NCBI GenBank assembly: GCA_951406725.2
Contig: OX597826.1
Location: 69,068,001 to 69,132,000, forward strand
From: Octopus vulgaris
Taxonomy: Eukaryota
Length of the DNA stretch: 64,000 nt
Direction: 5' to 3'
Part shown: positions 1,878-21,140 of the stretch, one piece after another
Numbering within the stretch: position 1 is the first letter of the stretch
How the letters are laid out: each line of letters starts with the position of its first letter
Translations under genes and position numbers: made by a program
Notes under the pieces: model-generated
Seen by the model: the letters and a program-made list of their open reading frames with translations, nothing else
Database searches by the model: none
What the model was told of the DNA's origin: nothing

Positions 1878-2220
1878 GCTAATTCGTAATTCTACAACCA
1901 AAAGGCAGAAATATATACGTCACTAAAGTGACCAAGGGCACTCGTCGGCACCAGTATCGCTAGAAATAAGAGTCAAAACAACTCAATTACCACAAAAAGG
2001 ACATTATCTTAATGAGCTGACAAGGGAGATAATCTCCCTACGGTCGCAGACAGACCTAGATAACCAATGATATCGCATTCTCATGCTTAACACATCTTAA
2101 TGCTTATCAGTTGCTCTCAGCGCGCCTTGGGTTAAATCCGTCTCACCATGTCAGCTTATAAGATCTCCGTTGAAATCATATGCTGATTTCATAATCCGTA
2201 AAGTGAGAATTATAAATATA
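1878..2220 (-). mobile_element. ~350-bp retrozyme-like unit with decayed hammerhead (copy 1)
   Basis: Homologous to 20771-21140; minus strand 2062-2115 reads CTGATAA-GCATT...AATGC-GATA (two core mutations, stem II intact). Confidence 0.6.
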
Positions 2221-2356
2221 CAGTTGTGTCAGGAAAGAGTCGTTCTCTTTCAGTGTCTTATAATTTAACACATTCACCAGTAAAATTTCCACTCAATTAC
2301 TTATTTATTTTTCCAAATCAAAATCCAAAACCAAAATATAAATATACATATATATA

Positions 2357-2796
2357 GGCGTAGGAGTGGCTGTGTGGTAGGTACCTTGCTTACCAACCCC
2401 ATGGTCCCGGGTTCAATCCCACTGCGTGGCACCTTGCGCAAGTGTCTTCTACTATAGCCTCGGGCCGACCAAAGCCTTGTGAGTGGATTTGGTAGACGGA
2501 AAATCAAAGAAACCTCTCGTATATATGTATATATATATATATATATATATATATATATATATATATATATATATATATATGTATGTGTATATGTTTGTGA
2601 GTCTGTGTTTGTCCCCCAACATCGCTTGTCAACCAATACTGGTGTGTTTACGTCCCCGTAACTTAGCGGTTCGGCAAAAGAGACCGATAGAATAAGTACT
2701 AGGCTTACAAAGAATAAGTCTTTGGGTCAATTTGCTCGACTAACGGCGGTGCTCCAGCATGGTCGCAGTCAAATGACTGAAACACGTAAAAGAGTA
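2357..2796 (+). mobile_element. SINE family A, full length
   Basis: Starts GGCGTAGGAGTGGCTGTGTGG; intact B box GGTTCAATCCC; same tail as 176-589. Confidence 0.92.
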
Positions 2797-3397
2797 ATAT
2801 ATGTCATTGATACCTCCTGCCCTATAGCAGGAAGCACTTGCCTAATTTGCCGCGCAGAGGGTTTGTAATCGAATTACGGTTAAAAAGCGAGCTCGTTAAT
2901 ATACATCCAAGCCAGTCCTATTTCTATTTTGTATTTTTAGATTCATTGTTGATTCTATTTATGAAGGAAGGGTTAGCTTTTAACTGAAATTATTCCTTAC
3001 AAGCAATGGTTCTCAGTTGTGTAATCAGTTTGGGAAAACACTCCTTATAAGTGTTCGGAATTCAAATTAAATTTACAGTTTGCATGTCTGATGAACACAT
3101 TTTCCTTTTCATCAGAAACCCCTAATGCAGGCTGTTACATAAAATTTCATTAACAATTGTGCCGATATTTATATGTTACTTAAATATTACATCTCATTAG
3201 AATCGCTGTTGCCTTCGTGTGTGTATGTGTGAGCATGTGTGTGTTGGTGGTACGATCATATCTATCTTGTTTGTGTGAACACAAACGTGGGGGGAAAACA
3301 TTTCACTGCAAAAATAGTCTCGAGAGAAAACTTTCGTCACAGACAACGTGTGTGAAAGCATATCATTATACGATGCAATGATGTCGTCGGAATGTAG

Positions 3398-3438
3398 GCT
3401 ACACGCGTTTGTGTGTCGTCACGCTTCATCAGATACAG
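3398..3438 (-). ncRNA. Decayed minimal hammerhead motif
   Basis: Minus strand: CTGATGA-A-GCGTG-ACGA-CACAC-AAA-CGCG-T; G12 missing, one stem II mismatch, palindromic ACGCGT. Confidence 0.45.
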
Positions 3439-3618
3439 ACACCGATTCTGTTGTGCATACCCACCGCTAAGAACGGTCGTACTTATATGGGTACTTATTT
3501 GGGTTCGTGTGCACTCGAAGGTGAGAAGAGTTTTCACCGTAGAAATAATTACGGAATTACACAGACATAATATATATATATATATATATATATATATATA
3601 TATATATATATATATATA

Positions 3619-4178
3619 CTAGCATTATGACCCGTCTTTGCCGGGTCATAGTGCTAGTGCATGTATATATGTGTATATATATATGTGTATATATATATGT
3701 GTACATATTACATGTACATCTATATATATACATCTACACATAAAATACAAAATACAAAGTTATATCTTGATACCGCTAGTGATAACAATACTAAGATATA
3801 TAACAGACTGGAATTGTAGGACTATTCCATTTCTGCACGCTAATTTACGATTATATTATACTTTTGTTTGATTTTAATTATTACTTACTACATATAATTC
3901 AATTGTTATTATTATTTTTATTGTTAAAGTGAAAGTATCTGACATAAAATAGAGAAATGTTTTTGTTTCACTTTTAACACGTAGTACTGAAATAGTGGAG
4001 AAGATATGATATTGCTATGGGCTCGCCCTAGGCAAGAAGTTGAACGTTCTTTTGCCCATGAAACTACATAGACACTCAGTGAGGCATGTGTAAAATTTGA
4101 ATGAAATTGTTTGTGTAGTTCTCAAGTTTTAGGGAAACACACAGACAGACAGACACACATTCTCAGTTTTATTTATAT
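3619..4178 (-). mobile_element. Non-autonomous Helitron-like element
   Basis: Minus-strand 3' end CTAG followed by T, with a GC-rich hairpin (plus 3618-3658 ACTAGCATTATGACCCG-7nt-CGGGTCATAGTGCTAGT); 5' end TATATAAATAAAACTGAGAATGTGTGTCTGTCTG with a (CTGT)n tract. Confidence 0.75.
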
Positions 4179-18007: not shown

Positions 18008-18449
18008 ATATTGGTGGGAGAATGGCTTCTGTTTTGGTGTGAAGCATCTTTACAACTGAGCAGATACAAGGACAAATAGAAACTGTGTTTGCATCTTTTT
18101 CTCGTGCATTTTCACGGAAAGCGTCATACACACATTATTCAAAAGCACATACTTATATATACAAACATTTCACAGGCAATACAGAACACACACACACACA
18201 CACACACACAATACTACGACACATATATTAATACATGCAGCTGGGAAAGTTTCACAAACAGATGCATGTGCAATACCCAATATAATAGCATAGATTGATA
18301 AAAATCGTATGAAAACATATTTATGTACAGCAAACATATATATGTATACTTATGCAAATAAACAAAAACATAAGATGTCCAAGACACTGCACCACATATC
18401 AGCTAGGCAAACTAGGATACAAACTTAGGAAGGTACAAATACTTCATGC

Positions 18450-19430
18450 AGAGGTAGCACTGGGAAAGCCAAGAGATTATATATTCTGATAGCTAGCATA
18501 TATACATGGAAGATCCTAGGAAGCTGACTTCTGAAGAGAATACTTGCTGCCAGACACCCAACATGGTTCCATAAATCATGTAATGTAACAGACTATAGTG
18601 AGATCAAATGAAGTGATATATCTCGACTTTGCAAGGCCTTTGATAAAGTCGATCTGGATCCTTCCTGCGTGATCTCAACATAGTGAAAACTGGGAGAATA
18701 GCTCATGACTTTCTGAATCAGCTGGTAGTAGCCAATGGGGCCACCTCAAACACACAAATAGTGAGCGGTGCGCACCACTCAAAGGATGGAATAACAACTC
18801 TCATTTATATCAAGAATATATCAAATATATGTCACAAATATATATAAATAAAAAACTGAGAGAATGAACATAATAATAGAATATACAAATGGAGAGAAAT
18901 ATAAATAAATATACTATTATAATATCTAAATATATATATATATACACATGATAACCAGATACAATAGTGCGTGATTTATTCACAGTGATACAGAATTACT
19001 ATGTACATGGCTAATATAAAATGAACATTGAGAACAAGCCAGATACTATGATGAAAATAAGCAATCTATAAATATGTGCAAGAACATCCAGATATTCACA
19101 GATAGCGCGAAACACGTACACATAGAAGATAGCACATATATAATAATGTAAGTGGCTACTGGACTTAGAAAATTATATTCATGGAAAAATATGCCAAATA
19201 TGAATCTGAGAGCTTTGTCACAGAACTTTGGCATCGAGAGTTACGCAAATGCCAGAACTGGGCGCCACTGCTTGGTGCCTAGGACTCAAACCTGCCACCA
19301 AGATAATAGGACAAGATATCTATAATAATCCTGGGCTAGCACGAGGCCCACAGCTCTTCAGATATACTCCCGAAGAACCTGAGAGACCTGCATGGGGTGG
19401 ATACAGATATATAAAATGAAGCTGGATACT
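18450..19430 (+). mobile_element. Scrambled CR1/L2-group LINE reverse transcriptase and C-terminus
   Basis: Fragments translate as LLPDTQHG, VIYLDFA/AFDKVD, VVANGATS, TQIVSG, NFGIESYANARTGRHCLVP, RGPQLF, ILPKNLRDLHGVD. Confidence 0.8.
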
Positions 19431-19842
19431 AAATCATAAGCTATCATATATATATATACATATATATATATATATATATATATATATATATATATATATA
19501 CATATTGATAATACACACACAAATACTCGCGTCCATGTCAACATGTGGTTCCGAGTTATACCGGAAGTAGCTGATTAAACCTAGGGAACGCATACTGAGA
19601 AACTGATCTCTGGGGAGATCTCTGATCTCTGAGGAATGTTACTTGTGGCCCTTTCTATTAGACCTGACGTCCATCCGACACATTTCTGACAGCTCTTTTT
19701 GGTTTTTACATAATTTTGTTCACTATCATGGTATATTACAAGATGATCCTTTGGTAAAAGTCTCTTTCTAAAGGTGGGGCAATGGGACCATGAAAATGGT
19801 GTGTCTTGATTGCGTGGCTAATAAATTTCAATCAACAATATT

Positions 19843-20427
19843 ATTTTCTACTCTAGGCACAAGGCCCGAAATTTTGGGAGGCGGGACCAGTCGATTAGAT
19901 CCACCCCAGTATGCAACTGGTACTTAATTTATCGAACCCGAAAGGATGAAATGCGAAGTTGACCTTGGCGAAATTTGAACTTAGAACGTAAAGTCAGATG
20001 AAATACCTATTTCTTTTCTACCCATAAGGGGCTAAACACAAAGAGGACAAACAAGGACAGACAAGGGGATTAAGCCGATTATATCGACCCCAGTGCGTAA
20101 CTGGTACTTACTTAATCGACCCCGAAAGTATGAAAGGCAAAGTCGACCTCGGAGGAAATTTGAACTTAGAACGTAAAAGGCAGATGAAATACCTATTTCT
20201 TTACTACCCACAAGGGGCTAAACACAGAGAGGACAAACAAGGACAGACAAACGAATTAAGCCGATTATATCGACCCCGGTGTGTAACTGCTACTTAATTT
20301 ATCGACCCCGATAAGGATGAAAGGCAAAGTCGACCTCGGTGGAATTTGAACTCACAACGTAACGGCAGACGAAATACGGCTACGCATTTCGCCCGACGCG
20401 CTAACGTCTCTGCCAGCTCGCCGCCTT
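19843..20427 (-). mobile_element. SINE family C, array of three ~185-bp units
   Basis: Head (minus GGCGGCGAGCTGGCAG...GAGTTCAAATTCC) at the right end; body units repeat at ~19976, 20161, 20347. Confidence 0.9.
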
Positions 20428-20770
20428 ATATCTGCCATTATATTATTTGATTCACACTTCCCTTTTCCGCTAAGTGATATTTTTAATGATACTTAGAAGT
20501 TCCGAGTGTTACTGATTTCAATTTCCCTCTTCAACATAGACATAAGGACATTACTTAATAGGAATAACCTTATAGTAAGTTACAGTTGCATCGCTGTGAT
20601 GAAAAAATAATTTATAATCCTTCTAAATTAACTGAGAAATACTGTTTCCAGTATTAGTAACATGTGTACACTAAATCAGCCATACAATATTGAAGGATCT
20701 CTCTCTCTCTCTCTCTCTCTCTCTCACCATATATATATATATATATATATATATATATATATATATATAT

Positions 20771-21140
20771 AGTACAATCATCACGTAAGTGACTAAGGGT
20801 GCAAATCATCACCAGTATTGCTAGATTGCTAGAAACAAGAGTCAAAACAACTCTACGCCACGAGCAAGCACTTATCTAATGACTAACAAGAGAGACAAGC
20901 TCACTAACACAAGTCAGATTGAGCCAGATCATCGATGATTTCGGATTTGATTAATCCTCATCAGCGACACTAACTGAGTTGCCACAGGCTAAACTTAAGT
21001 CGCCTAGTTGTCATTTAATAGAAAATACCACAGTAATCAGAGACTGATTCCGTAAAATGGTAAATTGAAAAATATAAATTATTAAAGTGGCTATTCGCAA
21101 TTTACAACCAAAAGGCACAAGTACAAACATCACTACAGTA
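20771..21140 (-). mobile_element. ~349-bp retrozyme-like unit with terminal redundancy (copy 2)
   Basis: AGTACAA(T/A)CATCAC at 20771 and 21120; between (TA)n and (CA)n; homologous to 1878-2220. Confidence 0.65.
20930..20969 (-). ncRNA. Hammerhead ribozyme-like motif
   Basis: Minus strand: TGTCG-CTGATGA-GGATT-AATCA-AATCC-GAAA-TCAT-CGATG; core and stem II canonical, stem III/cleavage linker atypical. Confidence 0.6.

What the first reader, a model, noticed from the sequence alone, without database searches (positions are those of the whole stretch)
1878..21140. A ~349-bp hammerhead-bearing unit present as two circular permutations (retrozyme-like)
Seen: 1878-2220 and 20771-21140 are diverged homologues with different start points. 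The block ATTCG(T/C)AATT..ACAACCAAAAGGCA(G/C)AA opens copy 1 but closes copy 2. Copy 2 repeats AGTACAA.CATCAC at both ends (period 349 bp). Both carry a minus-strand HHR-like motif at the same position, with different stem II sequences that each still pair (GGATT/AATCC vs GCATT/AATGC). Known: metazoan non-LTR retrozymes are short HHR-containing repeats thought to spread via circular or concatemeric RNA. Inference: this is a dispersed retrozyme family copied from a circular template. I cannot tell whether it has been described.
Basis: partly seen in the sequence, partly recalled or inferred. Interest (0 to 1): 0.8.

Follow-up and report, generated by a model that had tools for sequence, protein, structure and literature searches.

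The report
Hammerhead-bearing Penelope-type mini-retroelement (retrozyme)
Two aged copies of a ~350-base non-coding repeat carry a hammerhead self-cutting RNA motif (intact in one, broken in the other) and start at different points of the unit; the repeat is likely a small parasitic retroelement of a kind already known from many animals, and its shifted ends likely reflect how Penelope-like retrotransposons insert rather than proof of a circular RNA.

Summary
Copy 1 (~1862-2217) aligns end to end with a doubled copy-2 monomer (73% identity; score 190, shuffle maximum 44), so the two copies are permuted by about 45-50 nt.

Public contigs show a dispersed family: 382-584 contigs laid in each of three large runs of three organism labels. 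Many share one fixed end (21072-21077, copy 1's register) against (TA)n. Others run from the body into that end block, as copy 2 does. A few join head-to-head. The unit closes on itself and codes for nothing.

A fixed microsatellite-anchored end, an optional terminal 'tail' and head-to-head inversions are published marks of Penelope-like (PLE) insertion. Verdict: likely a non-autonomous PLE-mobilised unit of the non-LTR retrozyme kind. Only two registers are seen, not free permutation. Circle versus tandem transcript is unresolved; cleavage and expression are untested. New member of a known kind; interest 0.3.

The parts
1862..2217 (-). Copy 1: one whole unit plus up to ~8 nt, in the family's dominant register (tail block at the RNA 3' end, next to (TG)n); left edge uncertain between 1862 and 1869
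   Evidence: register equals the fixed end seen table 7
1862..1910 (-). Tail block of copy 1 (homologue of 21072-21120)
   Evidence: 38 of 51 columns identical
1968..1984 (-). 17-nt block identical in both copies; predicted small hairpin
2053..2116 (-). Decayed type I hammerhead: two core substitutions, 19-nt loop II, helix II still 5 of 5 paired
   Evidence: not found by the descriptor
20771..21139 (-). Copy 2: one 349-nt unit plus 20 nt of terminal redundancy, tail block at the RNA 5' side; lies between (TA)n and (CA)n
20771..20790 (.). Terminal redundancy, first copy (16/20 identical to 21120-21139)
20837..20854 (-). Best-conserved block of the family; predicted 6-bp hairpin on the hammerhead strand, 73-89 nt downstream of the predicted cut; candidate protein-recognition site (inference)
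   Evidence: identical in both copies; depth spike at 20824-20862 in all four runs (table 2); fold
20921..20970 (-). Type I hammerhead with complete core; helix I 5 of 6 pairs (two G-U), helix II 5 bp, helix III 4 bp formed by the palindrome AUCAUCGAUGAU; predicted cut between 20927 and 20926
21072..21120 (-). Tail block of copy 2; its left edge (21072-21077, ambiguous because ATATA matches the microsatellite) is the family's fixed end
   Evidence: table 7: 29, 36 and 19 contigs stop here with (TA)n beyond
21120..21139 (.). Terminal redundancy, second copy
20731..20770 (.). (TA)n microsatellite abutting the RNA 3' end of copy 2; likely insertion target

Best explanation
This is a dispersed, non-coding ~350-nt repeat carrying a type I hammerhead motif, likely a non-autonomous retroelement (non-LTR retrozyme kind) that Penelope-like retrotransposon proteins copied into microsatellites. 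Shown: the unit closes on itself (both the tail-to-head and the body-to-tail junctions occur in genomic copies), it has one dominant fixed end against (TA)n, copy 2 ends ~45-50 nt short of that end, and some copies join head-to-head. Inferred: the minus strand is the RNA; it is present as more than one unit (tandem transcript or circle); a PLE GIY-YIG endonuclease nicks a (TA)n/(TG)n target; the PLE reverse transcriptase starts inside the RNA at one of two sites ~155 and ~200 nt downstream of the hammerhead cut and stops at variable points upstream. Starting at the far site gives copy 1's register, starting at the near site gives copy 2's: the known PLE tail. Predicted, untested: the hammerhead cuts multimers to monomers, as monomer or through the palindromic helix III as dimer. 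Both window copies are old; copy 1's ribozyme is likely dead.
For: Permuted homology. Complete type I core, unique in the window, 0 in 100 shuffles. Unit 349 nt, 38% GC, inside the 150-450 bp, <45% GC range given for retrozymes (PMC7229834). Family: 439, 584 and 382 contigs at >=80% in three large runs of organism labels A, B, C. Fixed end: loose ends at 21072 with (TA)n beyond in 29, 36, 19 contigs. Tail-to-head join in register (348-350) in 6 of the 11 go-back rows shown in table 5c (37 rows in all). Body-to-tail join crossed by 8 of 32 listed pieces (1589 in all). Opposite-strand joints in 4 of 15 listed joints (65 in all); three end at 21133 and can only be head-to-head for a minus-strand RNA. 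Only ~107 nt lie between tail and hammerhead, so no ORF fits; no RT or GIY-YIG hit in 140 of 167 complex ORFs of the window. Literature: optional 30-40 bp tail, inverted 5'-truncated neighbours and microsatellite bias of PLEs (PMC8557442); tail equals the stretch between two internal RT start sites downstream of the hammerhead (PMC11167929); Xenopus retrozymes homologous to PLE pLTRs (bioRxiv 2026.07.22.740005).
Against: No autonomous partner and no pLTR homology was seen; no genome was available. The offset (44-49 nt) is longer than the published 30-40 bp. Copy 2's 3' end is the only one seen at the near site, since the stretch laid began at 20772. The PAc start site is described as AC-rich, while the hammerhead strand here is U/G-rich at both ends. 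The hammerhead is canonical-like, not the minimal PLE variant (PMC4209133). No tandem dimer was seen. Each inverted joint rests on 1-2 short contigs at an 80% likeness threshold, where the tool warns of mis-joins among repeats. The minimum-energy fold of the 50-nt motif (-12.3 kcal/mol) is not the active fold (-3.3). Copy 1 vs copy 2 identity over the hammerhead segment (33 of 54 columns) is not above the unit's average.
Confidence: 0.62

Rival explanations
1. One reading: a monomeric circular RNA is reverse-transcribed from arbitrary start points, giving freely permuted unit-length copies.
For: Both window copies are 1.0-1.06 units long and their two ends shift together; neither ends at the hammerhead cut. 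Retrozyme circles are shown in coral, mussel and axolotl (PMC7229834).
Against: One dominant fixed end (table 7) excludes arbitrary starts for much of the family. n = 2 complete copies. Circular fold of the hammerhead strand is not unusually stable (z -1.3 and -1.2). A tandem transcript gives the same junctions.
Confidence: 0.12
2. There is only one insertion register. Copy 2 went in as ~1.2 units with the tail at both ends and later lost the 3' tail by deletion at the flanking (TA)n.
For: Copy 2 is old (its two redundant ends differ at 4 of 20; most contigs are under 95% alike) and its short end abuts an unstable (TA)n. It is the only end seen at that site.
Against: The loss would have to remove about one tail length. 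An optional tail is a published feature of PLE copies (PMC8557442, PMC3846280).
Confidence: 0.12
3. The copies are solo or truncated pseudo-LTR relics of an autonomous Penelope-like element, not an independent small element.
For: Hammerhead, palindromic helix III, tail, microsatellite target and inversions are all pLTR traits; solo pLTRs are described (PMC3846280).
Against: The tail is joined to the body at both sides with ~107 nt between tail and hammerhead (copy 2 and 8 listed pieces), so the unit closes at ~350 nt with no room for an ORF. No RT or endonuclease hit nearby.
Confidence: 0.07
4. The element is moved by another machine: a LINE partner (SINE-like, (TA)n as a 3' tail) or a rolling-circle DNA transposase.
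For: A fixed 3' end with a simple repeat and variable 5' ends also fits LINE-type priming; LINEs are named as possible partners in PMC7229834. Rolling-circle elements give tandem, over-length copies (recalled).
Against: Closure of the unit on itself, the type I hammerhead and the tail offset are not SINE traits; ARAGORN finds no tRNA gene in the window; the two copies share no pair of fixed termini.
Confidence: 0.07

Closest known systems
Metazoan non-LTR retrozymes (Cervera and de la Pena 2020, PMC7229834: passages and sections 14, 17; review PMC7761336: passages)
   Same: Non-coding unit of 349 nt (mussel 350-390, axolotl 330-350), GC 38%, canonical-like type I hammerhead with palindromic helix III loop, many dispersed copies.
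   Different: Seen here only as 1.0-1.06 unit monomers; tandem arrays, cleavage and circles not shown. Here the copies show insertion marks and a conserved hairpin, while the review says metazoan retrozymes show no conserved motif that points to their partner.
Retrozymes as non-autonomous PLE derivatives (Li, Clavereau, Pollet, bioRxiv 10.64898/2026.07.22.740005; parts 1-3 of 5 read, supplements closed)
   Same: Same origin model; monomers described as evenly dispersed relics; most tested dimers (8 of 9) did not cleave.
   Different: 35 species (31 vertebrates, 3 insects, 1 coral), no mollusc. Argues from co-occurrence and pLTR homology, not from insertion ends. Their 'active' class needs two tandem units, not met here.
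PLE pseudo-LTR with optional tail: Poseidon of Anolis (Frangieh et al. 2024, PMC11167929, parts 1-2 of 4), Craig et al. 2021 (PMC8557442, passages), Arkhipova et al. 2013 (PMC3846280, passages), Cervera and de la Pena 2014 (PMC4209133, parts 1-2 of 4)
   Same: Hammerhead upstream of two alternative 3' ends; AT-rich or microsatellite targets; head-to-head inverted 5'-truncated copies.
   Different: No ORF; tail 44-49 nt rather than 30-40; ends 155-205 nt from the cut rather than starting ~85-92 nt from it; hammerhead not of the minimal type.
Non-autonomous Chlamys PLEs such as MRC1 (PMC8557442, passage)
   Same: Short non-coding PLE derivatives with pLTRs and head-to-tail insertions in microsatellites.
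   Different: Green-algal; Naiad and most Chlamys elements lack a canonical hammerhead.

Membership tests
Metazoan non-LTR retrozyme | Canonical type I hammerhead in the unit | tested here: met
   Complete core in copy 2; relic in copy 1. Rfam models do not score it.
Metazoan non-LTR retrozyme | Unit 150-450 bp, GC under 45%, non-coding | tested here: met
   349 nt, GC 0.38; stops in all six frames.
Metazoan non-LTR retrozyme | Genomic tandem copies (dimers to multimers) | tested here: inconclusive
   Window copies are 1.0 and 1.06 units; both junctions exist in the family, but no listed contig piece spans the whole stretch; no genome.
Metazoan non-LTR retrozyme | Self-cleavage of the RNA | not testable with these tools
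   Only folding energies.
Metazoan non-LTR retrozyme | Accumulates as circular RNA | not testable with these tools
   All runs laid were contigs, which cannot show ends, strand or circularity.
Metazoan non-LTR retrozyme | Highly self-paired monomer circle | tested here: inconclusive
   62% paired, z -1.3 (copy 2) and -1.2 (copy 1) in 60 shuffles each; both copies are aged.
PLE-mobilised (non-autonomous Penelope-like) element | Optional 30-40 bp tail at either end | tested here: inconclusive
   Offset of 44-49 nt between the fixed end and copy 2's end; second end seen once.
PLE-mobilised (non-autonomous Penelope-like) element | Insertion bias for microsatellites or AT-rich DNA | tested here: met
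   (TA)n beyond the fixed end in 29, 36, 19 contigs; both window copies abut microsatellites, in a window rich in them.
PLE-mobilised (non-autonomous Penelope-like) element | Inverted 5'-truncated neighbours (head-to-head) | tested here: inconclusive
   4 of 15 listed joints are opposite-strand, 1-2 contigs each, at 80% likeness.
PLE-mobilised (non-autonomous Penelope-like) element | Sequence homology to the pLTR of an autonomous PLE of the host | not testable with these tools
   No host genome and no repeat library held.
Autonomous Penelope-like element | ORF with RT and GIY-YIG endonuclease | tested here: not met
   Unit closes at ~350 nt; no RT or GIY-YIG Pfam hit in 140 ORFs of the window.
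Plant LTR retrozyme | Type III hammerheads in paired LTRs 600-1000 bp apart | tested here: not met
   Type I topology, single motif per copy, 349-nt unit.

The most novel reading that the evidence does not exclude
The dispersed copies are genomic footprints of once-round reverse transcription of a ribozyme-made RNA circle by a Penelope-like RT: synthesis starts at one of two fixed sites and halts just after meeting its own start, so copies are 1.0-1.06 units with both ends shifting together, and the invariant hairpin is the RT-loading signal. That would be direct evidence for the circle-to-DNA step of the animal retrozyme cycle, which the papers read only propose.
Probability: 0.2. Interest if true: 0.6.

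Novelty: new member of a known kind. Interest (0 to 1): 0.3.

Why it matters
The kind of element is known, so the family itself matters little. Its use is as a test case. The retrozyme papers read propose, but do not show, that PLE proteins mobilise these units and that circles are the template. This family has hundreds of dispersed copies, a fixed end, a second register and one invariant hairpin, so a map of copy ends in one good assembly could tell circle from tandem template and point to the partner. My searches found no report of hammerhead repeats in cephalopods, but the host assignment is recalled, not tested, and repeat libraries (Repbase, Dfam, the Octopus vulgaris library of PMC13282606) could not be searched.

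Tried and rejected
No genome is held for the window, so copy ends could not be mapped. Rfam on the whole window listed only microsatellite-driven miRNA matches below their gathering scores among the 150 of 364 rows shown; on each copy alone no hammerhead family. Family motif scans: 0 in metagenome contigs, 0 in viral contigs, 1 in prokaryote genomes (L008), which matches only over the motif and is chance (score 46 vs shuffle max 49). Hammerhead pattern: 0 in viral contigs; 7 in metagenomes, none aligning beyond the searched motif, 5 of 7 inside long ORFs, rejected as chance. A possible third copy at 51844-51860 has no flanking homology (37 vs shuffle mean 34); a two-copy profile finds no third copy in the window. 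The 14-nt repeat as a target-site duplication: rejected, copy 1 holds it internally. Covariation with two sequences: not significant. Expression: no RNA holder listed; run X1 is only guessed to be RNA, and its exact 179-nt contig (20772-20950) crosses the predicted cut, which contigs cannot interpret. Depth was not read as copy number. Motif searches of paper text gave 0. PMC5785218 is not held. PMC10886601 passages were irrelevant. PMC11167929 supplements gave no text hits; its figure S2 on tail ends could bear on the comparison and was not seen. Earlier scan findings by sequence, by place and by an 8-word query: none.
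Full report
Setting. The window is animal-like, microsatellite-rich non-coding DNA (GC 26-42%) with several dispersed repeat families. No ORF among 140 of 167 complex stop-to-stop ORFs reaches a Pfam cut-off. An abundant SINE in it looks to me like an octopus SINE; that is recalled and comes from no call. No genome is held.

Observation. Copy 1 aligns over positions 311-657 of a doubled copy-2 monomer, through the join without a gap (score 190; 200 shuffles mean 28.7, max 44). 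Identity is 73% without gaps. Copy 1 is one unit plus at most ~8 nt (about 1862-2217). Copy 2 is one 349-nt unit plus 20 nt (20771-21139), its ends 16/20 alike. The 14-nt repeat is element sequence, since copy 1 has a single counterpart there. No third copy exists in the window.

Ribozyme. On the minus strand copy 2 reads helix I (5 of 6 pairs), CUGAUGA, 5-bp helix II, GAAA, a palindromic 12-mer forming a 4-bp helix III, UC and the cut after 20927. It is the only descriptor hit in the window, and a strict descriptor gave none in 100 shuffles. The palindrome can also pair with itself (-15.5 kcal/mol), as in dimeric hammerheads (PMC4209133). Against: Rfam does not score it, and the active fold is 9 kcal/mol above the minimum for the isolated 50-mer. 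Copy 1 keeps helix II with one double-sided change but has two core substitutions and a 19-nt loop, so it is likely inactive. With two sequences the covariation is not significant (251 of 500 shuffles).

The family. The unit was laid at 80% likeness on contigs of four runs, picked from 22 listed. In three large runs of organism labels A, B and C, 439, 584 and 382 contigs fit; only 14, 21 and 5 are 99% alike or more, so copy 2 is an aged or minority member. (a) Fixed end: 29, 36 and 19 contigs stop at 21072 with (TA)n beyond. These rows are among the 24 of 401 loose-end rows shown. This is copy 1's register. (b) Tail-to-head join: 6 of 11 go-back rows shown in table 5c are in register within one base. 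These are what copy-1-type monomers give, so they do not prove tandem arrays. (c) Body-to-tail join: 8 of 32 listed pieces cross 21072 by 31 letters or more, as copy 2 does. With (b), every point of the unit is crossed by some genomic copy, so the template was longer than one unit or circular. (d) Four of 15 listed joints change strand; the three at 21133 must be head-to-head for a minus-strand RNA, with partners cut at 20825, 20886 and 20974. Each rests on one or two contigs. (e) Depth jumps about tenfold over 20824-20862, which holds the 17 nt identical in both copies and a predicted hairpin; it may be shared with a larger family. A smaller rise covers the hammerhead core (20928-20966), though copy 2's own changes at 20903-20920 explain part of it. 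Depth is not copy number, and falling depth toward 21000 may be truncation or divergence.

Mechanism. The hammerhead strand and the fixed, microsatellite-bound end agree that the minus strand is the RNA and that end is its 3' side (inference). Craig et al. describe for PLEs a 30-40 bp tail at either end, inverted 5'-truncated neighbours and microsatellite bias (PMC8557442, passages). Frangieh et al. show that a PLE RT starts inside its RNA, downstream of the hammerhead, at two sites that bound the tail, that the endonuclease prefers AT-rich DNA, and that hammerhead cleavage is not needed for insertion in vitro (PMC11167929). The two registers here fit that geometry, with a longer tail (44-49 nt). 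The unit has only ~107 nt between tail and hammerhead, so it is non-autonomous. Li et al. find 24 of 57 Xenopus retrozyme families homologous to known elements, nearly all PLEs, at their pLTRs (bioRxiv 2026.07.22.740005). I therefore read it as a PLE-mobilised retrozyme-type unit (0.62). Shown: anatomy, closure, fixed end, dispersal. Inferred: partner, priming, second start site. Untested: cleavage, expression, circles.

Circle or tandem. Both complete copies are 1.0-1.06 units, their ends shift together and neither stops at the cut site, which a once-round copy of a circle would give. But n = 2, a ~1.2-unit or tandem master gives the same, and copy 2 may simply have lost a tail.

Known or new. 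Type I hammerhead repeats of 150-450 bp and low GC are described across animals, including a mussel family of 350-390 bp (PMC7229834). Searches for retrozyme/hammerhead/octopus, hammerhead ribozyme/cephalopod and octopus/self-cleaving/ribozyme/repeat listed no paper on such a family (listings only), and a 2026 Octopus vulgaris repeat paper lists Penelope-like families without the word hammerhead (PMC13282606, passages and supplement search). Repeat libraries could not be searched, so it may already be catalogued. It works like a non-LTR retrozyme; membership is likely but tandem arrays, cleavage and circles are not shown. It is not an autonomous PLE. Earlier scan notes report similar units in other genomes; they are unchecked leads, not support.

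Verdict. Real feature, new member of a known kind, interest 0.3.

Noticed in passing
window 26969-27573 and 27797-28402: A 607-bp direct duplication, 99.5% identical, 223 bp apart; recent tandem duplication, LTR-like pair or assembly artefact.
   Followed up: no
window 176-571, 2357-2804, 12275-12710, 21908-22397, 32472-32867, 37295-37698: At least six copies of a ~450-bp SINE-like repeat with an internal (TA)/(TG) microsatellite, 80-92% alike; recalled as an octopus SINE, not tested. One lies 140 bp from copy 1.
   Followed up: no
window 19837-20430, 29554-30077, 31432-32345, 39606-39845, 42191-42863, 49955-50096, 53504-54161: A second abundant repeat family, in places as partial tandems (19889-20192 vs 20073-20377, 184-bp period, 88%).
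   Followed up: no
window 19946-20043 and 21243-21340: A 98-bp pair, 99% identical, on either side of copy 2, far closer than other members of that repeat family; local duplication or gene conversion.
   Followed up: no
window 16468-16638 and 17295-17467: A 173-bp pair, 96.5% identical, inside a microsatellite-rich stretch.
   Followed up: no
window 56275-56533 (+): Two overlapping frames give weak Pfam hits below cut-off: Transposase_1 (E 0.0017) and Peptidase_M18 (E 0.005); possible mariner relic or exon.
   Followed up: no
window 20816-20831: Copy 2 has a private 8-nt tandem duplication that copy 1 lacks, so the family's unit may be nearer 341 nt than 349.
   Followed up: partly
window 20781-20792 and 1919-1932: A second small hairpin near the unit junction is kept in both copies with different tetraloops.
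   Followed up: partly
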